A stretch of DNA of 13,323 nt, from positions 97,550 to 110,872 of the forward strand of contig CAJNOJ010000319.1 of NCBI GenBank assembly GCA_905250025.1, in the 5' to 3' direction. Of the stretch, positions 1 through 13,323 are shown piece after piece. The notes beneath the pieces were generated by a model, which saw only the letters and a program-made list of their open reading frames with translations, was not told the origin of the DNA and searched no databases. This stretch comes from Adineta ricciae. Lineage: Eukaryota. The first letter of the stretch is position 1; each line of letters begins with the position of its first letter. The translations under genes were made by a program, and so were the position numbers.

Positions 1-276
1 TGCCGTTGATGCACCAACATCAGTAATGTGCCAAATCTGACATAAATATTTCGAAGGACTTACGGAAAAGATTTCAAAAAAGATCGCAAAAGGTATTACA
101 AGAATTCCAACACATAAATCAGCTAAAGATAATGAAACAATGTAATAATATGTGGCATTATGAAGAGATCTTTCGCGATAAACTGCTAAGATAACAAGAC
201 AATTTCCAACAATTGTTAATAAACAAATGAAGATTAACCAAAATATTCCCTTGAGAAACATTTTCATGACGAACAT
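1..276 (-). CDS. Class A (biogenic-amine-like) GPCR, N-terminal part (TM1-TM3). Partial; continues past the window start.
   Basis: Minus-strand frame open from ATG at 276..274 to position 1. It reads MFVMKMFLKGIFWLIFICLLTIVGNCLVILAVYRERSLHNATYYYIVSLSLADLCVGILVIPFAIFFEIFSVSPSKYLCQIWHITDVGASTA. Rhodopsin-family hallmarks are present: GNxLVI..V in TM1, SLAxADL in TM2, C..W...DV..STASI in TM3. The listed ORF 158..403(-) is an overlapping out-of-frame artefact. Confidence 0.6.
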   Translation of the reverse strand, partial: MFVMKMFLKGIFWLIFICLLTIVGNCLVILAVYRERSLHNATYYYIVSLSLADLCVGILVIPFAIFFEIFSVSPSKYLCQIWHITDVGASTA

Positions 277-898
277 CAAAAGTAAATAGATCAAAATGTA
301 ATATCGTCAATCTGTTGACCTTGTGAGATGAATAATGAGCAGCAATGTAGGCGTGAAGATAGACGAATATTTCATCTGGAAGTCTTTCAATGAAATCCAT
401 CAAATAAATAATTCAATAACGGAAGGAAATCTTCAGAAGATTTGCGTTGCAACGATATTGATTCTCTTCGATTTATTAAAGATGAAAATGATCATCTCAG
501 TGTTTCCTTGTGATCTTTTCAAAAAAAAGATTTATTCAATCATTGTTTACAAAAACAAAATTTGGTTTATTTTTCTTCTTTGGAATCAATTAACAATGTC
601 GTTGAAAATCCGTTTCCATTGTTAAAATCACAGAGAACAAAGAAGAAAAAGAAAAATGATAAATTTGGATCTCAAATCGAATTGAAATGAGACAAAATTT
701 AACCTCATCCACCTTGAGGTCTTCGTCGAGAAGAAGGTCGCCATCCACATGAATCTCCATTAGAACGATTCGATTGTCCTGTTAATGGATTATGATCTGA
801 TGAACGATATTTCAATCGAGTTGGCTTTTCATCTGTTGTCGATTTCATTGCTTCGAGTTTCTAAAAGAAAAAGTTTGTTTATAATGAAATGAATCATT

Positions 899-1339
899 TC
901 AAAAACCAACCGCTTGTTTTTCTGCTAAACGACGTTGAGCTTCTTGTTCATATCGTTTCTGTTGTTGTTCTCGCACTTTTTCCATCTGTTCATATTGATT
1001 TATTCTTTGTTCTTTTCAAGAGAAAAATCAAATTTCGTCTGTTGTTTTTTTCTTCTTCTTCAAATCTTTTCAACTGACCTGTGGATAAACGATTTTCTCT
1101 TGGAGAATTTCGTTTTTTATAATAAATCACAATTGCAATAAGTAAAACAACGAAAACAATCCATTGATAAGTAACTAAAATCAAATTTCAATGACAAATT
1201 TTGATTAAAAAAGAAGAATTTTCTTTCTTTTACTTATTTTGTCGAAAAAAGATTTTTCAAAGAAATTAGTTTTTTCCTCTGATTGAGAGAAAATTTGTGA
1301 ATTTGAATCCACTTCATCTTCAATTGTCACATCATCCAT
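899..1339 (-). CDS. Small single-pass membrane protein with a charged, coiled-coil-like C-terminal tail (3-exon model, ~104 aa).
   Basis: Model complement(join(899..1011,1079..1174,1234..1339)). ATG at 1339..1337. It reads MDDVTIEDEVDSNSQIFSQSEEKTNFFEKSFFDKI | ITYQWIVFVVLLIAIVIYYKKRNSPRENRLST | EQRINQYEQMEKVREQQQKRYEQEAQRRLAEKQAVGF*. Introns are 59 and 67 nt (GT..AG) and the phases agree. Exon 2 overlaps listed ORF 990..1184(-). Alternatively, the unspliced reading of that ORF could be correct. Confidence 0.4.
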
Positions 1340-1983
1340 TTCTTCAAGAAATAAAATGAAAAGAAAGCAAAAACTACGTCGATAACAACAAAACCAATGA
1401 AAATATTTTTCAACAAAAATACAGATGTCACTGAATTTCATTTAAATTATCAAAACAGTTCAAAAATTCTTTTTTTCATTTCAATTGTACTTTTAGTCTG
1501 AAAAATTCGCTTTCTCTTCACTGATCAATGGTATCAAAGTCCATTTTCTCAGTGCAAAATCTTTTTGTGACTGATGTAATCAATTCTGGGTCACATATTT
1601 TGTTAATATCACTCTAATAATAACGATTGTCGATAAAAGACAATCTGTGAAACATTAGTATTCGCCCTACAAATGTTGTGTTACACTTTTTATTATTATT
1701 TCAATGAAGTCAAATTCAAATATATGTCGATAAATGATTTTTGATCTTCAATGGGCGTCACAGATGTTTTTTGAAAAGATTTCTTTTGAAATGTAAATGT
1801 TTGTTTTTCTCGCGACGATAGAATGTGATAATGATTTCAAATGTTAATAACAATAATTTCTTATCGAAAAAAGAAAGTTCTTGAAAAACAAATAAGAAGA
1901 AAATAATCTTTGTCATATCTTTTAACTTCTCATCTTTTCAAAAGTTAAAGACGTGTTGATAAGTAAGATAAATAAAATTGATA

Positions 1984-1986
1984 ATG
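1984..1986 (+). CDS. ABC transporter, putative single-codon initiator exon (ATG|gtaaaag).
   Basis: ATG is followed directly by a GTAAAAG donor. A 66-nt intron reaches the acceptor at 2052, and phase 0 joins frame to give MDQSKELAVSVQNGCKNYG... Alternative phase-0 first exon: 1529..1576 (ATGGTATCA...ACTGAT|gtaatc). Confidence 0.3.
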
Positions 1987-2052
1987 GTAAAAGATCAAAT
2001 TTCACCAACGTCGAATGAAAAATGAACATTTTTTTTGTCTTTCAATTAAAAG

Positions 2053-2168
2053 GATCAATCAAAAGAATTAGCTGTCAGTGTTCAAAATGGATGTAAAAAT
2101 TACGGACATTTTTGGAATTCTACACGTGTTTTACACGATATTACACTTAACGTTCCCATTGGAATTAT
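2053..2168 (+). CDS. ABC transporter exon. N-terminus of the nucleotide-binding domain, up to Walker A.
   Basis: Frame reads DQSKELAVSVQNGCKNYGHFWNSTRVLHDITLNVPIGI. Donor GTAAAT at 2169. A stop codon lies just upstream in this frame (2047-2049), so the exon must begin at the acceptor ag at 2051-2052. Confidence 0.7.
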
Positions 2169-2227
2169 GTAAATGAATATTTTTCCGTTGAAAAACAAAA
2201 CGAAAGAAAATGCGAATTTGTTCGTAG

Positions 2228-2542
2228 ATATGGTTTATTAGGACCAAGTGGATGTGGAAAAACGACGTTATTACGTTGTATTGTTGGTCGTTTCGAATTG
2301 AATTCAGGTGAAATTTTATTATTTGGAAAACATCCTGGAAGTTATGGACATGAAATTCCTGGCCGATCAGTTGGTTATATGCCACAAGAAAATGCTCTTT
2401 ATAAGAATTTTTCTATTTCGGAAATGCTTCATTATTTCGGTCGTCTTCATCATATGTCGAAAAAGGAAATTTTATCTCGAGTAGAATTTCTCATTCATTT
2501 TCTTGATTTACCTTTAAAAACGAGAAAAGTTGCTCAATTAAG
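2228..2542 (+). CDS. ABC transporter exon. Walker A (GPSGCGKTT) and Q-loop region.
   Basis: Acceptor ttcgtag at 2221-2227. Reads (I)YGLLGPSGCGKTTLLRCIVGRFELNSGEILLFGKHPG...YMPQENALYKNFSISEMLHYFGRLHHMSKKEILSRVEFLIHFLDLPLKTRKVAQL. Donor AG|GTTGGT at 2543. Confidence 0.85.
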
Positions 2543-2590
2543 GTTGGTGTTTTCCTTCGAATGAAAATTGAAATGTATTCTTTTGAATAG

Positions 2591-2698
2591 TGGTGGACAA
2601 CAACGTCGTGTTTCATTGGCATGTGCACTTCTTCAACAACCGAAATTATTAATTCTCGATGAACCGACTGTCGGAGTTGATCCTTTACTTCGAGAAAA
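2591..2698 (+). CDS. ABC transporter exon. ABC signature (SGGQQRR) and Walker B (LLILDEP).
   Basis: Splicing restores (S)[36 protein letters not shown]. Introns are 48 nt (2543-2590) and 45 nt (2699-2743). Confidence 0.85.
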
Positions 2699-2743
2699 GT
2701 CTGTTCGAAACAAATTGTCTCTATTTAATACATTTCATTTTAG

Positions 2744-2837
2744 AATTTGGACACATTTAATTGAAATTTGTCAATCAAGTCAAACGACGATCATTATCAC
2801 AACTCATTACATTGAAGAAGCAAGAAAAGCCAATCGA
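2744..2837 (+). CDS. ABC transporter exon. H-loop (TTHYIEEA).
   Basis: Reads (K)[31 protein letters not shown]. Donor GTAAGA at 2838. Confidence 0.8.
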
Positions 2838-2893
2838 GTAAGAGAAAATATTTGTATGAAAAAAAAAGAAAAAAAACACCAAGTTTTGTAAAG

Positions 2894-2968
2894 GTTGGAT
2901 TGATGAGAAGTGGAAGAATGTTGGCAGAAGATGAACCATTGAAGCTTTTAAATCAATATAATCAAACA
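2894..2968 (+). CDS. ABC transporter exon. C-terminal end of the nucleotide-binding domain.
   Basis: Reads VGLMRSGRMLAEDEPLKLLNQYNQT. Acceptor ttttgtaaag, donor GTTGTT (phase 0). Confidence 0.7.
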
Positions 2969-3023
2969 GTTGTTTTTGAAAAGAAACAAATTTTCGTTGT
3001 CAAAACGAATTTGTTAATTTTAG

Positions 3024-3334
3024 AGTTTGGAAAATGTTTTTCTTCATTTGTGTTTCAATGATCAAAATCGAATTGAAAGAGAAAATCTTCCAATTTCATT
3101 CGCAAATCCTTTAACAACAGAAGTTAACACAGATAATTTTCTTCCAATGAATACAAATCAAATCAAAAGTTCGTTTTCATCGAGTTTGTTTTTATTCAAC
3201 ATTTTCGTTGGTTTGATCTTTGAAGAAAGTTCCAAACCAAAAAAAATTCTTCGAGATTATTTGGTTTTTCCTAAATTACATAAAATTCTCGCATTGATTA
3301 TCAAAGATTTAACAGTTATCAAAACAAATATCGG
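3024..3334 (+). CDS. ABC transporter exon. End of NBD (LENVFLHLC) plus the linker.
   Basis: Acceptor ttaattttag. Reads SLENVFLHLCFNDQNRIERENLP...KLHKILALIIKDLTVIKTNIG. This corresponds to the LEDVFLKLC / KxRALLWKN block of ABC-2/ABCH proteins. Donor GTAAGA at 3335. Confidence 0.6.
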
Positions 3335-3381
3335 GTAAGAAAGAGAAATTCGCTGAAAAATCTGAAAATTCTTTTGGAAAG

Positions 3382-3446
3382 ATTTTTATTTTTTCAATTT
3401 TTAATTCCTGTTATTCAAGTTTCGTTGTTTTGCCTTTGTATTGGAC
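3382..3446 (+). CDS. ABC transporter exon. ABC-2 membrane domain, TM1.
   Basis: Reads (G)FLFFQFLIPVIQVSLFCLCIG(R), which matches the conserved FQFLLPVVQVILFCLAIGR block. Donor GTAAGT at 3447. Confidence 0.7.
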
Positions 3447-3499
3447 GTAAGTGACACAAGGAGAATGACAAAAAATTAACTGAAATGAATTTTTTTCAG

Positions 3500-3615
3500 G
3501 TGATCCGAAAGCTCTTCCAATGGCACTTTTTAACAACGAATCTCTCAACAATTTCCCCACGGGCAATGAGAGTTTACAACTCCTTAGTCAAATCAATTCG
3601 GATCAAATTCATTTT
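3500..3615 (+). CDS. ABC transporter exon. Start of the extracellular loop (RDPKxLP..NNE motif).
   Basis: Acceptor ttttttcag. Reads (R)DPKALPMALFNNESLNNFPTGNESLQLLSQINSDQIHF. Confidence 0.75.
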
Positions 3616-3664
3616 GTAAAAAACAAATTCTTTTTCCGAGAAATTATTATCGTTTCTTTTCAAG

Positions 3665-3768
3665 AATTCGTTTAATAATTTCGATCAAGCATTGAACTCG
3701 GTAAAACAAGGTCGATATTGGGGTTTAGCTGAAATTCGAACGAATTTTACTGAAGCGATCAATGACAA
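3665..3768 (+). CDS. ABC transporter exon. Extracellular loop.
   Basis: Reads NSFNNFDQALNSVKQGRYWGLAEIRTNFTEAINDK. Acceptor ttcttttcaag. Confidence 0.75.
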
Positions 3769-3827
3769 GTTTGTTTTTCCCCTCTTTCTCTCTTCGTTTT
3801 GAAAAAATCATTTTTATTGCTGAGCAG

Positions 3828-3898
3828 ATTTTTCAAATTTCAAACGGATCCATTAACATTAAATACATCGTCAATTCATTTATATCTCGATATGACAA
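3828..3898 (+). CDS. ABC transporter exon. Extracellular loop (YLDMTN motif).
   Basis: Reads (K)FFKFQTDPLTLNTSSIHLYLDMT(N). Donor GTAAAG at 3899. Confidence 0.7.
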
Positions 3899-3952
3899 GT
3901 AAAGTCGTTGAATGAAATTCGAAATGTTCGATGAATTATTCTTTGTAATCAG

Positions 3953-4320
3953 ATCAACAAGTGACATTTACAATGCAAAATGTGATTTTAAATGGAACAG
4001 AAATGTTTTTAAAACGATTTTTATCTGAACATGGCTTTGATCCTTCGATTGTTAATCCACCTGTAATTATTGAAAATCCCATTTATGGAAGTTTAACTCC
4101 GAAATTTTTGAATTTCGCGGCACCGGGAATGATGATATCGGTCATATATTTTTTAGCGCTCTGATATTTGTTGTTGAGAAAAAAAGAAGGTCTTTTAGAA
4201 CGAAGTTGGATCGCTGGTGTAACGATCATCGAAATTATGTTTTCACATATCATTGTCAAGTTTTTTATTCAAATTATTCAAGTTGTACTTTTAATTGTTT
4301 TTGCACATTTCATCTTCGAA
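3953..4320 (+). CDS. ABC transporter exon, TMD core. It contains an in-frame TGA at 4162-4164.
   Basis: Reads (N)QQVTFTMQNVILNGTEMFLKRFLSEHGFDPSIVNPPVIIENPIYGSLTPKFLNFAAPGMMISVIYFLAL*YLLLRKKEGLLERSWIAGVTIIEIMFSHIIVKFFIQIIQVVLLIVFAHFIFE. Conserved ABC-2 blocks lie on both sides of the stop. No GT..AG pair can remove it while keeping frame. Confidence 0.65.
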
Positions 4321-4372
4321 GTTTGATTTCGTCGATTTCTCATTTTCTTTTCTCATTTTCTCTTCATTTTAG

Positions 4373-4445
4373 GTGGAATTTAAAGGATCATTATTATTAT
4401 CAATGGCTTTGATTTTTCTTCAGGGAATTTGTGGAATGACTTATG
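4373..4445 (+). CDS. ABC transporter exon, TMD.
   Basis: Reads VEFKGSLLLSMALIFLQGICGMTY(G). Acceptor ttcattttag. Confidence 0.75.
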
Positions 4446-4497
4446 GTTAAATTCAATGACATGAAAATTTGCATTTCATTTTTCTGTTTTTCTTTAG

Positions 4498-4584
4498 GTT
4501 TATTGATCTCTTCATTCTGTGAAAATGAAATGCAAGTTATGGAAGTTGCTATGGGAAGTGTTTTCCCCATGTTACTTAGTTCAG
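4498..4584 (+). CDS. ABC transporter exon, TMD.
   Basis: Reads (G)LLISSFCENEMQVMEVAMGSVFPMLLSS(G). Acceptor tttctttag. Confidence 0.75.
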
Positions 4585-4641
4585 GTTTGTTGAATTGTAT
4601 TGGAAATGATTTTTTTTGTATTGATTGCTTTTCATTCGAAG

Positions 4642-4746
4642 GAATTCTTTGGCCAGTCGAAGGAATGCCATCAGTTATGCGTTTTCTCAGTCACTTTACA
4701 CCGTTAACATATCCTGTTGAAGCGATTCGATGTATCGCAGCACGAG
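4642..4746 (+). CDS. ABC transporter exon, TMD.
   Basis: Reads (G)ILWPVEGMPSVMRFLSHFTPLTYPVEAIRCIAAR(G). Donor GTGAGA at 4747. Confidence 0.8.
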
Positions 4747-4805
4747 GTGAGAGAATAATAGGGAATGATTTTTGTTTGTTAAAAACGAATATTTCTCTTT
4801 GAAAG

Positions 4806-4912
4806 GTTGGTCATTTGTTTACTACAAAGTTTGGCTTGGATTTCTCATAACGAGTTCCTGGAGTTTAGCATTTTTCATTATCGCTGCTATTTTACTCGCG
4901 TTGAAAAAATAA
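4806..4912 (+). CDS. ABC transporter terminal exon, last TM helix.
   Basis: Reads (G)WSFVYYKVWLGFLITSSWSLAFFIIAAILLALKK*. TAA at 4910-4912. AATAAA at 4937-4942. Total CDS is 2,118 nt, about 705 aa, which is typical for an ABC-2/ABCH half transporter. Confidence 0.8.
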
Positions 4913-4936
4913 TTCTCCTTTTTTTTCTTTGCATTT

Positions 4937-4942
4937 AATAAA
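4937..4942 (+). terminator. Polyadenylation signal AATAAA of the ABC transporter gene.
   Basis: AATAAA lies 25 nt after the TAA stop. Confidence 0.5.
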
Positions 4943-5046
4943 GAGTATCGTTTGGTAAAACAAGGAAATGAATTTGATTGGCTTAGGAAAAGAAAGAACA
5001 TATATGATGGAAAAAGTCATCTCAATCTCTTTTCTCCAATCTAAAA

Positions 5047-5087
5047 ATGTCTGATAACGTTGAAATTGTAAATCCAAATGAACAAAG
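5047..5087 (+). CDS. SLCO/OATP organic anion transporter, exon 1.
   Basis: Reads ATG MSDNVEIVNPNEQ + ag. Donor GTAAAC. After a 53-nt intron it joins in frame to TM1. Confidence 0.6.
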
Positions 5088-5140
5088 GTAAACATAAATG
5101 TTTTTCTCTGGAAAAAATCCTTCATGTTCTGTTTTTGAAG

Positions 5141-5679
5141 AAAATGTTCATTTTATACAATTCGATCGTATTTTATTCTTTTATGTTTCATTGTCTTATG
5201 TCAATCAATGATCACATCTGCATATTTAAGTTCGATTATTTCTTCAATTGAGAATTATTATGGATATTCAACAGAATTAATTGGCATTGCTCTGAGTTCA
5301 TATGATCTCATTTCAGTTATTTCAATTCCTTTATTTTCTTTCATTGGTTCGAGATTTAATCGTGCAAAATTAATCTCTTTTGGCTCATTTTTCTTTGCAT
5401 TGGGAAATATTTTGTTTATTTTACCATATTTTATCAATGGTTATGATATTAATCAATTGACCAATCAAACGAAAAATTCGTCATTCGATGAGTTTTGTTC
5501 TTCGAATATTTCAATTGAATCTCTTTATGAACCTTTCACACGACTTTCTCCATCTTGGTCCTATTATGTGATCATTCTATCAATGATTATCATGTCGATA
5601 GGTTCGAGTCCATTTTATACTTTGGGAATTACCTATTTAACTGATCATTTGAATAAAGATGATCAACCGATTTACACAG
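5141..5679 (+). CDS. SLCO/OATP exon 2 (TM1-TM4).
   Basis: Reads (R)KCSFYTIRSYFILLCFIVLCQSMITSAYLSSIISSIENYYGYSTELIGIALSSYDLISVISIPLFSFIGSRFNRAKLISFGSFFFALGNILFILPYF...LTDHLNKDDQPIYT. This corresponds to the OATP blocks KSSIT.IERRF, GSF(E)IGN, YFGSR.HRPK and YLDD. Donor AG|GTAAGG. Confidence 0.8.
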
Positions 5680-5729
5680 GTAAGGTTTTCTTTGAACAAA
5701 AAAAAAGAATTTTCTTTTGATGAAAAAAG

Positions 5730-6005
5730 GAATTTTGTATGGAATGGTCGCTTTGGGACCTGGAATTGGTTTCGTTTTGGGTTCATATTTTGGATCGAAA
5801 TGGATAAATATAAATGATGAAATCGATTCGTTTGATTTGAATAAAAATGATCCTCGATGGATTGGAAGATGGTGGGCGGGATTTTTAATTTCCTCGACCT
5901 TGTTGTTTCTTCTTTCCATAATTTTATTTACATTTCCATCTTCTTTATCAAATCATTCTCAATTACAACAAACAAATCAAAATGAATCTTCAACAAATTT
6001 TCAAG
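5730..6005 (+). CDS. SLCO/OATP exon 3.
   Basis: Reads (G)ILYGMVALGPGIGFVLGSYFGSKWININDE...DPRWIGRWWAGFLISSTLLFLLSIILFTFPSSL.. This corresponds to OATP 'G.GPA.GF..G', 'PRW.GAWW.GFL'. Confidence 0.8.
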
Positions 6006-6058
6006 GTCACAACTTTTTTTTCTCTTTGTCATATCCAAAACAACTTTTTTTCTTTCAG

Positions 6059-6135
6059 TTTTTCGCAAGAATCTCATTGAATTATTGAAAAATGTCACAT
6101 ACATCTCCATTTCATTGATCAATGCAATTGAAAAT
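6059..6135 (+). CDS. SLCO/OATP exon 4.
   Basis: Reads (V)FRKNLIELLKNVTYISISLINAIEN, matching OATP F.KSL..LL.NP.Y. Acceptor tctttcag. Confidence 0.7.
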
Positions 6136-6197
6136 GTATAGAAAATCTTTTTCTTTCTTCCAAAAAAGAAATATTTCCTAATTGTTGATCAATTTAG

Positions 6198-6584
6198 ATT
6201 TTAGTTGTTTTATTTACAACATATTTGATCAAATACATTGAATCAGTATTTAATTATTCCTCATCATATTCGAGTATCTTAACAGGATTAATTTTATTAC
6301 CATCAGCTATACTTGGAACAATCTCAGGTGGATTTTTAGTTCGACGTTTTCATTTAACAATCTTTGGTTGCATTAAATTGATCTTTATATCATGTTTGAT
6401 TTCTTTGATAAGTTTAATTTTGATTTTATTCTTAAAATGTCAATCAAATATTCGATATTCATTTGATGATCAATGTTCTCAAAAGTGTCATTGTTCCTCA
6501 TTGATTTACGAACCAGTTTGTTATGAAAATCAAATCAATTATCTTTCTCCATGTTATGCAGGTTGTACAAACAAAAATCAAACG
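6198..6584 (+). CDS. SLCO/OATP exon 5, including the first half of the Kazal-like domain.
   Basis: Reads ILVVLFTTYLIKYIESVFNYSSSYSSILTGLILLPSAILGTISGGFLVRRF...CQSNIRYSFDDQCSQKCHCSSLIYEPVCYENQINYLSPCYAGCTNKNQT. The cysteine spacing matches the Kazal-like domain found in the large extracellular loop of OATPs. Confidence 0.75.
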
Positions 6585-6725
6585 GTAAGGTCAACATATT
6601 TTCTTCTAATTAACGTCAAAACTTTGGAAAATAGAAATCATCGTTATTTTTTATCAAAGTTGAGATGACCTTTTTATGTTTGGATCGAAAGAAAAGTTCC
6701 TTATTTTTTTTTCTTTTCTTTTAAG

Positions 6726-7232
6726 AATTATCTGAATTGTCATTGTTTATCAAATGGAACGATGGTTGAAAAAGGTTTATGTGAGAATAATTGTCAAATG
6801 GAATTGATATTTTTCTTTGTAATTTTATTTTTGGTGACATTTTTCGAAACTTTAATGGCAACACCACAATTAATGATTATTTTACGTTCGACAACAGAAT
6901 CTTTGCAATCATTTGGATTGGGTTTAGAAAATTGTCTGATGAAGATTCTTTCTCAAATTCCAACACCGATTTTATTTGGAATTTTGATTGATAAACAATG
7001 TTTATTTTGGTCGAAATCGTCACTATTTAATCATTCAACATCGTGTTTGATTTACAATCAAAAGCAATTTTCATTTACTTTATTTTTGACGATCACTCTT
7101 ATCAAAACGATTTCGTTTTTCTTTATTTTATTTTTATTTTTATTTCATTGGAAAAAACAGAAAAGCCTTTTAATAGAAAATCCTGGAGAGCGAGAACATC
7201 TTTTAAATAATTCATCGACAGATATTCAATAA
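6726..7232 (+). CDS. SLCO/OATP terminal exon (end of Kazal domain, TM10-12).
   Basis: Reads NYLNCHCLSNGTMVEKGLCENNCQ...SFGLGLENCLMKILSQIPTPILFGILIDKQCLFW...* TAA at 7230-7232. An AATAAA overlaps the stop. Total CDS is 1,827 nt (609 aa). Confidence 0.8.
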   Translation, partial: NYLNCHCLSNGTMVEKGLCENNCQMELIFFFVILFLVTFFETLMATPQLMIILRSTTESLQSFGLGLENCLMKILSQIPTPILFGILIDKQCLFWSKSSLFNHSTSCLIYNQKQFSFTLFLTITLIKTISFFFILFLFLFHWKKQKSLLIENPGEREHLLNNSSTDIQ

Positions 7233-7496
7233 AATCATATTTGCGACAAAAAATTTCCTCTACCTTGATTCAATACGCAGCTATTCGATTAATTCAGGTA
7301 AAACTGTCTGATGTGATGATTCTCTTACCAATGAGTAATTAACGATAGTTCGAAGGATTGCTTTTTTTTTGTCAGGGCAAAACGAGTTAAATTATTGCGA
7401 ATGATTGATAAATGAAGAACGAGAAAAATAAATGAGCTGCGTTTAGTCGTTATATAAAACGTTTATTTGTTTGTCGACATTTATTTTCGTTGAATT

Positions 7497-7591
7497 ATGT
7501 CACGACGAAAAGGTAAAAAACAAGTGGAGACCTTGGCTTGGATCACCGATGATGAAGCTGAATTTTGGACGGTTCGATTTCTGATTTTTCA
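7497..7591 (+). CDS. Possible 5' exon of the low-complexity protein gene.
   Basis: Reads ATG MSRRKGKKQVETLAWITDDEAEFWTVRFLIF + ca. Donor GTAAGA at 7592. A 39-nt intron reaches acceptor ag at 7629-7630 and joins in frame to the 7668 ORF. The intron is unusually short, so this is low confidence. Confidence 0.25.
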
Positions 7592-7630
7592 GTAAGAAAT
7601 TTTTTACACGAAGTCTTGTTGTTTTTAGAG

Positions 7631-8207
7631 TATCACACCAAATCGTAAAATTGCCGAACATGAGAAAATGAAAAAATATGCTTCAGACAATGACCTACCT
7701 GACGGTGATCATTTTCGTTTCGATCGTTCGTTAAAAGCAAAAAAACAACAAGAGAATCTACTTGAGAAGGAAAATCAACGTCATTCGGCGGATAATTTCA
7801 ATTCAAAAAAAAATTCATTGGATCAAGTGAAAGAAATCAATGAAGAAAATCAACATTTTATCGACAAGCCAACGATTGAAAGGGAAAAAAACGATAAATT
7901 CTTTTCTCGATTAATTCAAGAATTAAAAGGTTCGTCAATCGATAATGAAGAAAATGTTCAATTGAATCAACAAAATAGTTTCGAAGATTATCAACAAATC
8001 AGTACAAATGACGTCATTGCAAATCAAAATCAACAGCAATCGACAATCTCCAATGAAGAAAACGAAACAAATCTACTTTTCGATCAATTTCATTCGTTTA
8101 TCGATGAAATTACCGAAGAATCGTTTGTGATTACTGGAAGTTTAGATGAAGATACACTTCTTAATCGGAGAAGTAGACGTGCAAAAGGTTTTTCAGCTTT
8201 CAAATAA
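7631..8207 (+). CDS. Low-complexity, N/Q/E/D-rich acidic protein with a basic C-terminal end (RRSRRAKG). Function unknown.
   Basis: Listed ORF 7668..8207 (179 aa) runs to TAA. The upstream in-frame extension to 7631 depends on the putative splice. Composition is coding-like, and AATAAA motifs lie downstream. Confidence 0.55.
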
Positions 8208-8578
8208 ACGAACAAAACTTATCGAGATGAAGAAGTTTTGTCTTTGGAGTACAACTGAGCGTCGTCATTTTATCTCAAAGGAATAATAAATCAATTAATT
8301 TCTTTTCTACGAAATTCAATGATTTCTTCTTTTTGTTCTTTAATGGTGAAAGATTTTCTAAAAAAAATATGTAACAGATTTTCTTTTTAAACAAAATTCA
8401 ATAAAGAATAAATCAAAACATCTGTTCTTTCCAACGTCATTGGAAGATACAAAAGAAAATAACATTTTCTTGTTCATCCTTATGTACCAAAAGTATAAAA
8501 ATCTTCTTTCTTCAAATTCAAATGTCAAATTCAATCAATAAACTTTCATTTCCAATCAAAGTCCAACTGCAACTGAGC

Positions 8579-8586
8579 TGACGTCA
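8579..8586. promoter_or_regulatory. Perfect CRE-like palindrome TGACGTCA.
   Basis: TGACGTCA sits ~270 bp upstream of the ATG of the secreted modular gene. It is the canonical bZIP/CREB site, but it is also expected by chance in the window. Weak. Confidence 0.2.
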
Positions 8587-8768
8587 TTCACTGTAGGCGT
8601 TCGAATACAAATTGAATAGAAAACAAAAACAAAGAATCTAGGGAAAAAGGCTAATGAATCCAATGGAATGAAAGAGAAGAAATTAAATCCATCTGATACA
8701 TTCATTTCGTAACATCAGGAATAATCATTAAGAGTATTTTCGAGAAACAATTTCAAAATAAGATTCCA

Positions 8769-8775
8769 TATAAAA
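8769..8775 (+). promoter_or_regulatory. TATA-like box (TATAAAA) ~85 bp upstream of ATG 8855.
   Basis: The sequence context is ccaTATAAAAtcc. Its position fits a core promoter for the secreted-protein gene. Confidence 0.3.
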
Positions 8776-8854
8776 TCCGCTGAATATTTCATTTCACGAC
8801 ATTTCACATATTTTCTTACTCTGAAAGCATTGTCGTTTACATTGACAACCAAAA

Positions 8855-9374
8855 ATGCGAACGACATTCTTTATACTCCTATCTGCAATTGCGTTTCTCC
8901 AACTCCCATCATGTTCATTTGCGAGTAAGACTTTCTTTTTATACTTTGCTATGTCTTTCAACTTCATCTTTGCCTCTTCTTCTTCTCCTCAAGCTGCCCA
9001 AACGAAAACAGCGGCAGTCGATGCTCATATGGTCGTGAATAAAGGTGGAACTTTGAAAGGAACTATGGTTATTACAAATTGTGATAAAACTTCTCTCACA
9101 CAATCGAAAGAAACTTTAACAAACACATTAACGAAAAAAGTACAAGCTGATGATACCAAAAATTCAAATTCGAAAGTTAGTGTCACGGGTATTCGAGAAT
9201 TAGAACCAGGAACACTTGCTTTCGATTACGAATGCACCGAATCTAAAAATCCCGAAAAAGCTAAAGAAACGTTGAATACCTGTGTGAAACACGATGATGT
9301 GAAGAAAGTTATTGCAAAATCATCATCCAATGTTGCTACAACCCAGGCAAAACAACAAGCAAATGTTCAACAAA
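8855..9374 (+). CDS. Secreted modular protein, exon 1: signal peptide plus Cys domain 1 (degenerate, 3 Cys).
   Basis: Reads MRTTFFILLSAIAFLQLPSCSFA (signal peptide) ... TNCDKTSLTQSKE...YECTES...NTCVKHDD... An in-frame 69-nt GT..AG segment at 8925-8993 (gtaaga...cctcaag) is probably an intron. Donor A|GTAAGT at 9375, phase 1. Confidence 0.75.
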
Positions 9375-9537
9375 GTAAGTGACCTTCTATCTAATAGAAC
9401 TTTCGATTATCTGTAGTGCAAGATTTCTTTCTTGACGTCGTTTACAAAGGAAATGAAGAATTACTTTGGCAATATCATTTTATCTTATTTTATCTATTAT
9501 CCACTTCTTTTCTCTAAATAATATTTTCTATTCGTAG

Positions 9538-10161
9538 CTAAAGCTCAACCGGCTACTCAAGCACCAAAAGCTGCAACAGCAGCCCCGAAATCTTCCCAAA
9601 GCAAACCAACCAAAGCTGTTAATCTCGATTGTGACAAAACACATCAAATCGTCGCTCAAGATGAGAATTCAATTACTGGTGTATTTACTGTTCATTCTTG
9701 TAAAGCATCACGTTTCACTCAGAAACAAAGTCGATGCACATCTCTCGGTAGTAAACTCAGTTCATTAGTCACCGATCGTGTAGCTAAAACTGGTGATAAG
9801 AAACCATGTAGCGTTAATATCGTTAAAGCAAGTGGTACATCAACTTCAACTGAATTTCGGTACACACTTCCATGCGAGAAAAGCCGTCAAAAAGCTGTTA
9901 TTGATTCGCTAAAAGACGCTTGTAAAGACAAAAATTTTGCAGATACAATTACAAATATCAAACAAAAAGAACAAGGAGAATCGAGTTCGTCCGAAAGTGA
10001 TGAAAATAACAAGAGTCCAAGTAAACCAGTTAAAGTTGTGCAAACTGAACAGCCAAAGACAACCACGACAGCCAAACCAACAGAGAAGCCAACGACTGCC
10101 AAGCCCACAGAAAAGCCAACGACTGCCAAGCCTACAGAGAAGCCAACGACAGTTAAGACAA
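9538..10161 (+). CDS. Secreted modular protein, exon 2: Cys domain 2 (6 Cys) plus an S/E-rich stretch and the PT-rich linker.
   Basis: Reads (T)KAQPATQAPKAATAAPKSSQSKPTKAVNLDCDKTHQIVAQDENSITGVFTVHSCKASRFTQKQSRCTSLGSKLSSLVTDRVAKTGDKKPCSVNIVKASGTSTSTEFRYTLPCEKSRQKAVIDSLKDACKDK...EQGESSSSESDENN...TTTTAKPTEKPTTAKPTEKPTTAKPTEKPTTVKT. Phase-1 acceptor and phase-1 donor (A|GTGAGT). Confidence 0.8.
10077..10157 (+). repeat. Three tandem 27-nt coding repeats (PTEKPTTAK).
   Basis: Units ccaacagagaagccaacgactgccaag / cccacagaaaagccaacgactgccaag / cctacagagaagccaacgacagttaag. The antisense ORFs 9887..10184(-) are artefacts of this repeat. Confidence 0.8.
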
Positions 10162-10294
10162 GTGAGTCGAATTTTGCCCTTCATTCACAAGTATACTTTC
10201 TTTTCGTCACTCAAAATGAATGCACATATGTGTGGTGATGACAGAGACATGTAGAACAAAAATAAGGATTCAGTACAATCATGTACAATTTTAG

Positions 10295-10674
10295 CTCCAC
10301 GCAAAACCACCAAGGCCGGTGCAACGAAGAAACCACCAGCCACAACACGTAAAGTTGAAGTGAAGAACTGCGATGACCATGACTACAACGACAAAGACCA
10401 AGTCTTGACCGGTAAAATCGTTGTTCAAGACTGTCCATGTGAGAAGCGATTCGCTAACAATGCATCACGTCTTGCTGCCGTTTCATCAACTGTCTGCACA
10501 CAACTCCGAAACTACTTCCAACAACTGTATGGAACAAAGATCAACTACCCATGCAGTCTCAAAGTAGTCGCAGGAAACAAAACGCACACCGTGTTTGCAT
10601 ACACCGTTAACGTACCACAATCAGAACAGAGCAAAGCCAAAGCGGCAGCCAAGAAGGCCTGTCAAGATGATCAA
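10295..10674 (+). CDS. Secreted modular protein, exon 3: Cys domain 3 (6 Cys).
   Basis: Reads (T)PRKTTKAGATKKPPATTRKVEVKNCDDHDYNDKDQVLTGKIVVQDCPCEKRFANNASRLAAVSSTVCTQLRNYFQQLYGTKINYPCSLKVVAGNKTHTVFAYTVNVPQSEQSKAKAAAKKACQDDQ. It is paralogous to domain 2: NCD...LTG..V..C, PCS..V...T..F.YT, ACxDD. Donor GTAAGT, phase 0. Confidence 0.8.
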
Positions 10675-10772
10675 GTAAGTGAAAGCGGCCGTGATAGAAG
10701 TTACACATGGCCGCAAAGCAGACACTCGAGAAAAAGAGAAACGAGTGTTGAGGAATGTTTTACTTATTCTAG

Positions 10773-10995
10773 GTGAAAAAAGTTATCGAACAAGAGTCGC
10801 TCAAACGCGACGGCGATGACGATAGTGATAGTAGCAGTTCGGAAGAAACCACACGCGCGCAAGCCAAGCCTGTAACGACCCAAAAGGCTACTGAGAAGCC
10901 GACGGAAAAGCCAACAACTGCCAAGCCCACAGAGAAGCCGACGGAAAAGCCAACTACTTCCAAGCCCACAGAGAAGCCGACAACAGTTAAGACAA
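10773..10995 (+). CDS. Secreted modular protein, exon 4: acidic/Ser stretch plus PT-rich linker 2.
   Basis: Reads VKKVIEQESLKRDGDDDSDSSSSEETTRAQAKPVTTQKATEKPTEKPTTAKPTEKPTEKPTTSKPTEKPTTVKT. Donor A|GTGAGTCGAATTTTG is identical to the donor after linker 1. Phase 1. Confidence 0.8.
10887..10994 (+). repeat. Tandem ~39-nt coding repeats (PTEKPTEKPTTAK/SK).
   Basis: acagagaagccgacggaaaagccaac(a/t)act(g/t)ccaagccc is repeated. The antisense ORF 10769..11047(-) is an artefact. Confidence 0.75.
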
Positions 10996-11055
10996 GTGAG
11001 TCGAATTTTGTTTCGTCTTTATAGGTGTCATTTTTCTCTTCACTCAAAATGAATA

Positions 11056-13183
11056 CCTAGAGTAGTGTGAAAGATTGTAGAATCAATCTCTTCCTTCGCT
11101 TTTTCTTGGCTTTTGAAACGTCACTGATGTTTTTTCGTTCTACATTTTACACTATTACAACAATTCAAAGATGTTCTTCCATATTTTATTCGAATAAAAT
11201 ATGAAAGAATATCTATGAATCGATCCCTTTTCCGAGAGAAAGGGTTATACAGCGGTTAACTCCTGGGCTCAAAAAGCTTAAAGTTTGTCTCTCTGTCTGT
11301 CCTATCCAATCAGAAAGCAGCATTTGTTAAATCATTGAAATTTACGGATGGCATCCAAAAACTGAGTACTAGTAAGGTAATCTGGGTCGAGGAACTCAAA
11401 TTCCTTGTTAGTTTTTCCTTCACTCACTAAGATCCATCTTCTTCCTTTCTCTTTCTGAAGCAGATGTTTTTCTGAATCTTTTCTAAAATCTCGTATAGAA
11501 GGTAGTGGATGAATCGCTATTTTTGGGTATGATGTGTGCGAGATAGCGGTTTTGGTCGTTGCACCAAAAAGATTTAGCATATCTTACATTATCATATTTG
11601 CCTTGTGAGCTACGATACGTGACGTCTTTTGATAGAATTTTACGGGAAATAGATCCCCTAAAGAGTATACTCGTCAGTGTAATTGTATCTTATTATCCAT
11701 AATGATAACGGCTAGCGGCGAGTGACTGACCGGAGTTTGGCCTACGAATGACTAACCATTAAGCGGTGGGAGTTTAGTAAACATAGCTAGTACTTGAAAA
11801 ATATTCTCTGACAAATGGGTGATTGATTCGGTTCATGAAAAAAGAAGAGTTTTTGTCTTGTATTGACTCTCGTGTGGGACACAACGCCATGATCTAGCTC
11901 GGGAACAGTAGTAACCGCAGTGTCCTATTTGTTCTTCAATGAATCGGAATATGTTCAACAGTAGACCAGTTCTTTCAATAAAGGGTCGGCGAATCTAGGG
12001 TGAGGGTTACTTGTTGTACTAGTGCAAAATGTACAACGAAAAAACATCAATGACATTTTAAAAAATCAAGAAACAACGAAGGGAGAAATTGATTGTATAA
12101 TTTTTTCCCACCACTGTATATGACAATAGATAAAACTAACGTACTAGAGAGTAATCGTTGACGATTAAGAAATACTGTATCGAGCGTTTCATGCGTTGAA
12201 GAACTAAAGCAGACAGAGAGATCAATATTCTACAAACTTCTTCGTTTTCGAGCCCCTATTTTTCAGCCATGCATTGCAACTAACGATAGTTTCCATCGCA
12301 TTTCTTGGTAGTAAAGAGAGAAATATCAATGTTGGGCGAGGCGGTTACGGCGGGGAACTTTACAGATCAATACTAGCTACACAATCAAAGCTAGTTTTTA
12401 CATCATTTAAAACTATGAAAACTGTTTCTTTCACAAAAGTTAATTGTCGCCTTCAGAAGAGCGCTCATCAAACTCATTTTCATCATCGCGATACTCTTTA
12501 CATCCTGTTCTTCATATTCACTCAGCCATTCTCTATCACCATCGGATACACACACAACCGCATCTAAACCCTGAGCTTTATTTTCAACTAAAGCGTTAAT
12601 AACGCAGCTTCCATTTACCCATACAAATACCCTCTTCTATGTGCAAAAGCATCTTCAAAGACTTACTAACTCTAAAAATCTTTTGCCTAACTCGTGCAAC
12701 TTCACCGATGTCTACTATTCAGACCCGCCGACTTAACCCACTGCCTAAGCCAACAGCATGTAAAGTTTCCTCAATCCGACACATGCAGAAACTGAATGTG
12801 TACGGCATGAACGAAAACTTTTCGCTTCATGTTAAAAATATCCTAAAGCGATCAGCGTACAGGGAGCTTTCGCAGCACATTCTCCAACTCTTTTCAAAAG
12901 CTATAATCCTGTGCGTCAAGCCAAGATTCCCTCTAACGAATCTCAGGTTCAATTATACCGCCGCAACCTATCGATTGGCCCCACATCCGCCTAACACCGT
13001 ACCAAGGGAATTTACGTTACCGCAGACACTATCGCACACAGTGAGAAGCGACCCAATCAAGAACATTCCCTCCACATAAGTCATAGTACGCTAACGACAA
13101 AAGCACACATTACCGATATAATATTCTATCTCAGAAGCCCTACAGCGACGCACTTTCTAAGAGCCATCTACTTTTCTGCCTTT
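11056..13183. mobile_element. ~2.1 kb compositionally distinct insertion inside the intron of the newest module. Possibly a degenerate transposable element or other foreign-derived DNA.
   Basis: The equivalent intron of the older module (10162-10294) is ~130 nt. Here the homologous flanks (cactcaaaatgaat ... atcaCATACAATTcTAG) are separated by ~2.1 kb. That stretch has higher GC, strong A+C strand skew from 12400-13180, and no convincing spliced gene. It contains minus ORF 11332..11580 and a start-less, protein-like minus frame at ~12385-12650. Confidence 0.3.
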
Positions 13184-13205
13184 CACCTATCACATACAAT
13201 TCTAG

Positions 13206-13323
13206 CTCCACGCAAAACCACCAAGGCCGGTGCAACGAAGAAACCACCAGCCACAACACGTAAAGTTGAAGTGAAGAACTGCGATGACCATGACTACAAC
13301 GACAAAGACCAAGTCTTGACCGG
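13206..13323 (+). CDS. Secreted modular protein, exon 5 (partial): start of a further copy of Cys domain 3.
   Basis: The 118 nt from the acceptor ag to the window end are 100% identical to 10295-10412. The same phase-1 junction continues the reading frame. Confidence 0.6.

What the first reader, a model, noticed from the sequence alone, without database searches (positions are those of the whole stretch)
4156..4170. In-frame TGA inside a conserved transmembrane exon of the ABC transporter
Exon 3953-4320 is collinear with the ABC-2/ABCH membrane-domain consensus on both sides. APGMMISVIYFLAL lies before and RKKEGLLERSWIAGV lies after. A TGA at 4162-4164 interrupts it. No canonical donor/acceptor pair can excise the codon while preserving frame, and about four residues seem to be missing relative to the family at this point. 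The options are a sequencing or assembly error, a genuine nonsense allele in a recent pseudogene, or stop-codon read-through or recoding.
Basis: seen in the sequence. Interest (0 to 1): 0.6.

Follow-up and report, generated by a model that had tools for sequence, protein, structure and literature searches.

The report
Frameshift-made premature stop, one rotifer allele
The in-frame TGA is real in this sequence, but it comes from a small compound mutation (a 13-base deletion, one extra A and one base change) in one of two otherwise identical copies of a bdelloid rotifer ABC-transporter gene, so it is an ordinary premature stop or a library artefact, not recoding.

Summary
The window is Adineta ricciae (bdelloid rotifer) DNA from the 'maxhap' SPAdes assembly GCA_905250095. 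It carries an ABCH-type half-transporter gene at 1984-4912 on the + strand, with 17 exons and 16 GT-AG introns of 45-66 nt.

A second contig of the same assembly (L001) matches all 13,323 bases of the window except for three changes within 45 nt:
- A>G at 4141 (Ile>Val).
- A 13-nt deletion after 4157/4158.
- One extra A in the run 4179-4185 (A6>A7).

The two indels sum to -12 nt. Only 27 nt (4159-4185) are therefore read out of frame, and the TGA lies in that stretch. The twin copy and all homologues, from rotifers to fish, read ...FLAIGLTALIFVVEKKEGLLERS with no length variation.

Recoding finds no support:
- No SECIS element was found.
- No homologue has Cys or Sec at this position.
- No natural-size intron can remove the codon in frame.
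- No frameshift-stimulating RNA structure follows the slippery-looking sites.

GenBank already ends the protein (CAF1396368.1) at this TGA. My best reading is a young heterozygous null allele made by one error-prone repair event (about 0.65). The main rival is an artefact of the whole-genome-amplified library or the assembly (about 0.28). Interest is low.

The parts
1984..4912 (+). ABCH-type (NBD-TMD) ABC half-transporter gene. It has 17 coding exons: 1984-1986, 2053-2168, 2228-2542, 2591-2698, 2744-2837, 2894-2968, 3024-3168, 3226-3334, 3382-3446, 3500-3615, 3665-3768, 3828-3898, 3953-4320, 4373-4445, 4498-4584, 4642-4746 and 4806-4912. The natural stop is TAA at 4910-4912.
   Evidence: The hand-built model reproduces GenBank CAF1396368.1 up to the TGA, and all 16 introns are GT-AG and 45-66 nt long. 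Pfam finds ABC_tran plus ABC2_membrane_3/ABC2_membrane. Best hits are bdelloid ABCH-like proteins, Brachionus 'Abch-like1' and crustacean snustorr.
3953..4320 (+). Exon 13, which encodes the end of the extracellular loop plus TM2-TM3 of the ABC-2 membrane domain. It carries the lesion.
4141..4141 (+). G here, A in the twin contig. The change is ATC>GTC, Ile>Val. Ile is conserved in all homologues aligned.
4157..4159 (+). Junction of a 13-nt deletion relative to the twin contig. The lost bases are GATTGGTTTAACA, or equivalently ATTGGTTTAACAG, with 1-nt microhomology. They encode part of Ile-Gly-Leu-Thr-Ala.
   Evidence: No other copy of the junction sequence exists in the 16.3-kb locus on either strand.
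4159..4185 (+). A 27-nt stretch read out of frame. It is read as L * Y L L L R K K instead of (A)LIFVVEKK. The conserved peptide ALIFVVEKK is still encoded here in the -1 frame.
4162..4164 (+). The in-frame TGA, codon 511. It acts as a premature termination codon, 156 nt upstream of the next exon junction, with four junctions downstream.
   Evidence: GenBank ends CAF1396368.1 here and annotates the tail separately as CAF1396386.1.
4179..4185 (+). A7 run, which is A6 in the twin contig. The extra A restores the original frame from 4186 onward (GAA GGT = E G...).

Best explanation
The TGA is a premature stop codon in a very young null allele of an ABCH-type transporter gene of the bdelloid rotifer Adineta ricciae.

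One haplotype acquired three changes within 45 nt: an A>G substitution, a 13-nt deletion and a +1 expansion of an A6 run. Most likely this was a single error-prone DNA-repair or replication event, such as end joining or translesion/repair synthesis at a break or lesion. That mechanism is inferred, not shown.

The indels sum to -12 nt, so the frame is restored after 27 nt. The misread stretch happens to contain TGA.

Translation therefore stops after 510 residues. That leaves the ATP-binding domain, TM1, the extracellular loop and about half of TM2, and removes the rest of the membrane domain. The message is a plausible target of nonsense-mediated decay.

The other haplotype (contig CAJNOR010003236.1) is intact and presumably supplies the function. 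Nothing is recoded.
For: **Shown**
- The window equals L001 2939-16273 except for 1 mismatch and 2 gaps, all between 4141 and 4185.
- If three independent differences fell at random in 13.3 kb, the chance of all three landing within about 45 nt is roughly (45/13323)^2, about 1e-5. A single event, or a single artefact, is therefore implied.
- The intact state is ancestral. The A. ricciae twin and ohnologue, A. vaga, A. steineri, Rotaria, Brachionus, a nemertean, an oyster, crustaceans, a fish and a brittle star all read ...(I/V/L/T)GLTAL.F(V/I).E.KEGLL.R with no length variation. All keep Ile where the window has Val.
- The rest of the gene is undamaged. All 16 introns are GT-AG, and the Walker A, signature and Walker B motifs and the C-terminal TM region are intact.
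- The assembly is a plain SPAdes (k up to 121) 'maxhap' re-assembly with only 2 kb of gaps, so no gap-closing or consensus-polishing step could have written the lesion. Both versions must have been present in error-corrected reads.
- The input was DNA from about 200 clonal animals, which argues against a single early amplification error reaching high frequency.

**Context from the literature**
- Low-divergence (loss-of-heterozygosity) tracts from about 100 bp to more than 50 kb are documented in Adineta vaga (PMC13564844). That would explain the identical flanks, although A. ricciae homologues normally differ by about 4.6% (PMC5916493).
Against: - No reads, coverage values or independent assembly could be consulted. 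Exact look-ups of ORFs from either allele found nothing, and the 110.9-kb contig itself is not retrievable.
- The library was whole-genome amplified with phi29 (REPLI-g), which does create rearranged molecules.
- The identical 13.3-kb flanks may simply be shared assembly-graph edges used in two contigs. The relative abundance of the two versions is therefore unknown.
- The proposed repair mechanism is inferred only from the clustering. No local template explains the new junction.
Confidence: 0.65

Rival explanations
1. Library or assembly artefact. The mutant version does not exist in the animals. It arose during phi29 whole-genome amplification or read correction, and SPAdes kept it as one arm of a bubble. 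The gene would then be intact, as in contig CAJNOR010003236.1.
For: - The DNA was REPLI-g amplified, corrected with tadpole and assembled with SPAdes into a 'maximum haplotig' set designed to keep highly similar contigs.
- The two contigs are identical over 13.3 kb outside the lesion. This fits one locus with two read populations better than it fits typical A. ricciae homologues, which differ by 4.55% at the median.
- L001 ends inside a 141-nt near-identical block shared by two paralogous genes. That is what a graph path made of shared edges plus an alternative arm would do (inference).
Against: - A 13-nt deletion plus a base change 17 nt upstream plus a +1 about 21 nt downstream is not the usual phi29 artefact. 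By general knowledge, those are mostly inverted chimeras, each of them unique.
- The input was about 200 animals, so an early 'jackpot' error is unlikely.
- The mutant arm sits in the long 110.9-kb contig. It passed two rounds of read error correction and the assembler's low-coverage filters (inference from how SPAdes works).
- There was no gap-filling step.
Confidence: 0.28
2. Recoding. The TGA is decoded rather than terminating, by one of three routes: selenocysteine insertion; stop-codon read-through; or a -1 ribosomal shift at T_TTT_TTA (4147-4153) followed by a +1 shift in the A7 run. The double shift would yield ...YFLSALIFVVEKKEGLLERS...
For: - T_TTT_TTA lies in the zero frame just upstream, and an A7 run lies just downstream. 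Shifting at both would read the conserved ALIFVVEKK peptide and bypass the TGA.
- The organism does use Sec-TGA elsewhere. The neighbouring SelS-like gene ends ...GG-TGA-GGT-TAA.
Against: - No SECIS match was found on either strand at Rfam gathering score or at E<=5. This negative is weakened because the same Rfam models also miss the SECIS-like hairpin of the neighbouring SelS-like gene.
- The ABCH 3' UTR is short, and the only SECIS-like hairpin lies on the opposite strand, in the SelS 3' UTR.
- Homologues have Gly/Leu or nothing at the aligned position, never Cys or Sec.
- The T_TTT_TTA and A-run sequences are also present in the intact single-frame allele, so they are ordinary AT-rich coding sequence.
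- No stable RNA structure follows either site (z -0.76 and +1.8).
- Two low-efficiency shifts in series would give very little product, and that product would still lack 4 residues of a length-invariant helix.
- No homologue shares the split-frame layout.
Confidence: 0.01
3. Old or decaying pseudogene, or a cryptic micro-intron that removes the TGA.
For: There is a premature stop in a conserved exon. The A>G change at 4141 creates a GT dinucleotide.
Against: - The copy has no other disabling change and no other difference from the intact copy in 13.3 kb.
- GT(4141)...AG(4198) is 58 nt, not a multiple of 3, and runs into a stop after splicing (sequence inspection).
- The smallest in-frame GT-AG pair is 96 nt and deletes the conserved core. 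The 21-nt GC-AG option is far below the 45-66-nt intron range.
Confidence: 0.02

Closest known systems
ABCH subfamily of ABC transporters. Examples: insect/crustacean Snustorr and Oskyddad, Tigriopus ABCH, Brachionus 'Abch-like1', and the solved insect ABCH structures 8yzp/8z00/8z01.
   Same: The domain order is NBD then ABC-2-type TMD. Pfam finds ABC_tran plus ABC2_membrane_3/ABC2_membrane. Identity is 42-49% over the full length to named ABCH proteins. The match to the solved 'ABC transporter G family member 23-like' chains has E 3e-162. The ...APG...GLTAL.F..E.KEGLL.RS... TM2 motif is shared.
   Different: This copy is truncated at codon 511 and lacks 4 residues of TM2. No function has been tested in rotifers. 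The lipid-barrier role is known from arthropods only (general knowledge).
Heterozygous frameshift / premature-termination alleles caused by complex (multi-change) mutations, as produced by error-prone double-strand-break repair or translesion synthesis.
   Same: There is a cluster of a small deletion with 1-nt microhomology, a homopolymer +1 and a nearby base substitution, in otherwise identical sequence. The second copy is intact.
   Different: The mechanism was not observed. No templated insertion or nearby template was found. Reality in the animal is unverified.
Selenoprotein genes (in-frame TGA decoded as Sec with a 3' UTR SECIS).
   Same: An in-frame TGA lies inside a conserved coding exon.
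   Different: There is no SECIS and no Cys/Sec in homologues. The TGA lies in a frameshifted stretch that is absent from the intact allele. A likely genuine example, a SelS homologue, lies in the same window on the other strand, for contrast.

Membership tests
ABCH-type ABC half transporter (the gene) | N-terminal nucleotide-binding domain with Walker A, ABC signature and Walker B motifs, followed by a C-terminal ABC-2-type membrane domain | tested here: met
   The motifs GPSGCGKTT, SGGQQRR and LLILDEPT are present. Pfam gives PF00005 at 4e-31, PF12698 at 4e-32 and PF01061 at 2e-25 on the intact twin.
ABCH-type ABC half transporter (the gene) | Closest relatives are proteins named or solved as ABCH | tested here: met
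   Hits include Brachionus Abch-like1, Tigriopus ABCH, snustorr and oskyddad. The match to PDB 8yzp/8z00/8z01 has E 3e-162. No phylogeny was built.
ABCH-type ABC half transporter (the gene) | Complete six-helix membrane domain | tested here: not met
   The window copy stops at codon 511. P0003 covers only profile positions 2-177 of 347 in PF12698. The twin copy meets this feature.
Selenocysteine recoding | SECIS element in the 3' UTR of the same transcript | tested here: not met
   Rfam finds no SECIS at gathering score or at E<=5 on either strand. Caveat: the Rfam models also miss the SECIS-like hairpin of the neighbouring SelS-like gene, so this negative is not absolute.
Selenocysteine recoding | Cys or Sec at the aligned position in homologues, with the TGA in the conserved frame | tested here: not met
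   Thirteen homologues align without Cys or Sec at this position. The TGA lies in a stretch that is out of frame relative to the intact allele.
Programmed ribosomal frameshifting | Slippery heptamer in the zero frame | tested here: met
   T_TTT_TTA lies at 4147-4153 in frame, and an A7 run lies at 4179-4185. Both motifs, with A6 in place of A7, also occur in the intact single-frame allele.
Programmed ribosomal frameshifting | Downstream stimulatory RNA structure | tested here: not met
   The fold of 4154-4240 has z -0.76 and the fold of 4186-4270 has z +1.8 against shuffles. Pseudoknots were not searched.
Programmed ribosomal frameshifting | Split-frame layout conserved in relatives | tested here: not met
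   All homologues and the twin allele are in a single frame.
Stop-codon reassignment (TGA = sense) | Many in-frame TGAs at conserved sense positions across genes | tested here: not met
   There is one TGA among 686 codons of this gene and none in the twin. The gene ends with TAA. Other genes in the window were not checked for in-frame TGAs.
Long-standing pseudogene | Several independent disabling changes and relaxed constraint | tested here: not met
   There is a single lesion cluster and zero other differences from the intact copy in 13.3 kb.
Genuine heterozygous allele (versus artefact) | Allelic read fraction in amplified and unamplified libraries | not testable with these tools
   No read data were available. 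Exact-ORF look-ups were negative.

The most novel reading that the evidence does not exclude
The three clustered changes could be the footprint of a single error-prone repair of a chromosome break in a desiccation-tolerant bdelloid rotifer, sitting inside a freshly homogenised (loss-of-heterozygosity) tract of at least 13 kb. If so, this locus would be a natural example linking break repair, gene conversion and mutation clusters in an asexual animal. A more exotic reading is that the mutant allele is partly rescued by a -1 shift at T_TTT_TTA and a +1 shift in the A7 run. I put that reading well below 1%.
Probability: 0.12. Interest if true: 0.4.

Novelty: already known. Interest (0 to 1): 0.12.

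Why it matters
It matters mainly as a clean-up. An eye-catching in-frame TGA in a conserved exon turns out not to be recoding, so it should not be followed up as a selenoprotein or read-through candidate.

For annotation, CAF1396368.1 (510 aa) and CAF1396386.1 (151 aa) are two fragments of one broken ABCH allele. CAF1392495.1 represents the intact gene, although its model skips one exon.

If the allele is confirmed in reads, it is one data point on how null alleles and clustered mutations arise in a long-term asexual animal. A single case carries little weight.

Tried and rejected
- **Splicing.** I enumerated every in-frame intron spanning the TGA. None has a natural size with canonical ends without deleting the conserved core. 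GT(4141)...AG(4198) is 58 nt and out of frame.
- **SECIS and other RNA families.** Rfam gave nothing at gathering score or at E<=5.
- **Template switching or ectopic patch.** I searched for local direct or inverted templates for the new junction and the base change in the 16.3-kb locus. I found no nearby (within 400 nt) match longer than 7 nt and none of 9 nt or more anywhere in the locus; only chance matches to the A-run turned up.
- **Frameshift stimulators.** Folds downstream of T_TTT_TTA and of the A7 run are not stable beyond shuffles.
- **Independent evidence for either allele.** Ten exact ORF look-ups, mutant and intact with several start choices, were all absent from the collection.
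- **Fetching the 110.9-kb contig to compare flanks beyond the window.** P0003 and P0122 are not on record in the position index. A search with an OATP exon did not return the A. ricciae protein at all. I therefore could not test whether L001 1-2938 also matches the long contig.
- **Gap-closing artefact.** I rejected this because the maxhap assembly is plain SPAdes with only 2 kb of gaps.

Full report
**What the sequence is**

The window is AT-rich (about 30% G+C) and carries short-intron animal genes. A search with the conceptual protein of the + strand gene identified bdelloid rotifer ABC transporters. The best hit, P0003 (Adineta ricciae CAF1396368.1, 510 aa), is identical to the window's translation and ends exactly at the flagged TGA.

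The source is a 110,872-nt contig of GCA_905250095. This is the 'maximum haplotig' SPAdes assembly of A. ricciae clone ARIC003/AD001, built from run ERR4467412. The library was HiSeq X 150 PE on REPLI-g whole-genome-amplified DNA of about 200 clonal animals. The assembly has 22,742 contigs and only 2 kb of gaps (Nowell et al. 2021, PMC7943196).

**The gene**

I built the model by hand and then adjusted it to the GenBank protein.
- It has 17 coding exons between 1984 and 4912 and 16 GT-AG introns of 45-66 nt. The natural stop is TAA.
- Walker A (GPSGCGKTT), the ABC signature (SGGQQRR) and Walker B (LLILDEPT) are all present.
- Pfam finds ABC_tran followed by ABC2_membrane_3/ABC2_membrane.
- Named relatives are ABCH-type proteins: Brachionus Abch-like1, Tigriopus ABCH, snustorr and oskyddad.
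- The closest solved chains are 8yzp/8z00/8z01, at E 3e-162.

**Checking the observation**

TGA at 4162-4164 is in frame and is the only internal stop, at codon 511.

The segment is exactly four codons shorter than in all relatives. Those relatives show no length variation here, from rotifers to molluscs, crustaceans, an echinoderm and a fish.

**What made the TGA**

The 90% cluster of P0003 holds two more A. ricciae proteins.
- P0122 (151 aa) is the tail of this same gene, annotated separately on the same contig.
- P0121 (665 aa, CAF1392495.1) lies on another contig and reads straight through: ...ISIIYFLAIGLTALIFVVEKKEGLLERS...

That contig (L001 = CAJNOR010003236.1, 16,279 nt) aligns with the whole window (1-13323 = L001 2939-16273) with one mismatch and two gaps. 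All three differences lie between 4141 and 4185:
- A>G at 4141 (Ile>Val).
- Loss of 13 nt (GATTGGTTTAACA) after 4157/4158.
- A7 instead of A6 at 4179-4185.

The sum of -13 and +1 is -12, so the frame is restored from 4186 (GAA GGT = EG). The 27 nt in between are read one base out of register, as L-stop-Y-L-L-L-R-K-K. The conserved ALIFVVEKK is still legible in the other frame.

All three window states are derived. The twin, the ohnologue and every outgroup share the other state.

Three independent changes falling within about 45 nt of 13.3 kb has a chance of order 1e-5. This is therefore one event, or one artefact.

**Recoding and splicing rescue**

- Rfam finds no SECIS or any other family at gathering score. 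At E<=5 it finds nothing relevant.
- Homologues have no Cys or Sec at the site.
- An HIV-like T_TTT_TTA heptamer lies in frame at 4147-4153, and the A7 run follows. A -1 shift and then a +1 shift would read ...YFLSALIFVVEKKEGLLERS.
- Against that idea, both motifs are ordinary coding sequence in the intact allele too. No stable structure follows either site. No relative has a split frame.
- No in-frame canonical intron of natural size spans the TGA.
- The GT created by the A>G change, paired with the AG at 4198, gives a 58-nt interval that is out of frame (sequence inspection).

**Real allele or artefact?**

I could not settle this.

Points in favour of a real allele:
- The assembly involved no gap filling or consensus polishing. 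Both versions must therefore have been present in corrected reads and must have survived the assembler's coverage filters (the filter behaviour is inference).
- The input was many animals, so an early amplification error is unlikely to dominate.
- The pattern of a small deletion with 1-nt microhomology, a homopolymer +1 and a nearby substitution looks like error-prone repair rather than a phi29 chimera (general knowledge).

Points in favour of an artefact:
- The library was phi29-amplified.
- The 'maxhap' set is designed to keep near-identical contigs.
- The 13.3-kb identity is atypical for A. ricciae homologues, whose median divergence is 4.55% (PMC5916493). The two contigs may therefore share collapsed graph edges and differ only in one bubble arm.
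- L001 ends inside a 141-nt block shared by two paralogous genes, as such a path would (inference).

Loss-of-heterozygosity tracts of up to more than 50 kb are documented in A. vaga (PMC13564844), so a homogenised region carrying one new lesion is plausible.

My weights are: real young null allele 0.65, artefact 0.28, everything else under 0.05.

**Consequence if real**

The product would stop after the ATP-binding domain, TM1, the extracellular loop and half of TM2. P0003 covers Pfam PF12698 positions 2-177 of 347.

Four exon junctions lie downstream of the stop. Nonsense-mediated decay is therefore likely, by inference from the general rule. The intact copy would carry the function.

**Verdict**

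It is not a recoding event.

**Other things seen**

The gene just upstream on the minus strand is a selenoprotein S homologue. Its annotated stop is TGA followed by GGT TAA, giving ...RRRPQGG-U-G like vertebrate SelS. A SECIS-like hairpin sits in its 3' UTR, and Rfam does not detect it. Details and further items are listed separately.

Noticed in passing
window 705-1339, minus strand (coding exons 1339-1234, 1174-1079, 1011-911, 860-705; probable true end 699): This is a selenoprotein S homologue (Pfam PF06936, 30.3 bits against a cut-off of 29.8). Its annotated stop is TGA (reverse complement of 705-707), followed by GGT TAA. The true C-terminus is therefore probably ...RRRPQGG-Sec-Gly, as in vertebrate SelS. 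The public annotation (152 aa) treats the Sec codon as a stop.
   Followed up: partly
window ~575-650, minus strand (3' UTR of the SelS-like gene): This is a SECIS-like hairpin. An outer helix (UUCUUCUUUG/CAAAGAAGAA) encloses an internal loop with GUGAU on the 5' side and UUGAU on the 3' side. Inside is a perfect 9-bp helix (UUAACAAUG/CAUUGUUAA) and an apical loop starting GAAAC. The fold is -18.7 kcal/mol with z -2.2. Rfam's SECIS models do not report it even at E<=5.
   Followed up: partly
window 1984-2052: The first coding exon of the ABCH gene is only the ATG (1984-1986). It is followed by a 66-nt GT-AG intron, according to the GenBank model that my reconstruction reproduces.
   Followed up: partly
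L001 4922-7862 (P0121) versus window 2894-2968: The GenBank model of the intact allele (CAF1392495.1, 665 aa) skips the 75-nt exon that encodes VGLMRSGRMLAEDEPLKLLNQYNQT. That exon is present in the model of the broken allele and in all homologues, so this is probably an annotation slip.
   Followed up: no
window 8846-11024 and 13189-13323: These are mucin-like secreted-protein genes with Thr/Pro/Lys-rich tandem repeats. One array has period 27 at 10051-10152 and another has period 39 at 10893-10981, both encoding TEKPTTAKP-type units. A second paralogous copy starts near the window end: 13189-13323 is 97.8% identical to 10284-10418. L001 ends in this block.
   Followed up: partly
window 11111-11163 and 12011-12063: This is a 53-nt inverted repeat, 89% complementary, with arms 847 nt apart, in an intergenic stretch. 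A hairpin-like palindrome at about 11159-11224 gave weak, sub-threshold miRNA-family hits. It may be a small foldback or MITE-like element.
   Followed up: no
window 1-306 (minus strand) and 5047-7232 (plus strand): The neighbouring genes are a rhodopsin-type GPCR (7tm_1), cut by the window start, and an OATP/SLCO organic-anion transporter with a Kazal-like Cys-rich loop. A search with a 159-aa OATP exon did not return the A. ricciae protein itself, which suggests it is missing from the protein index.
   Followed up: no
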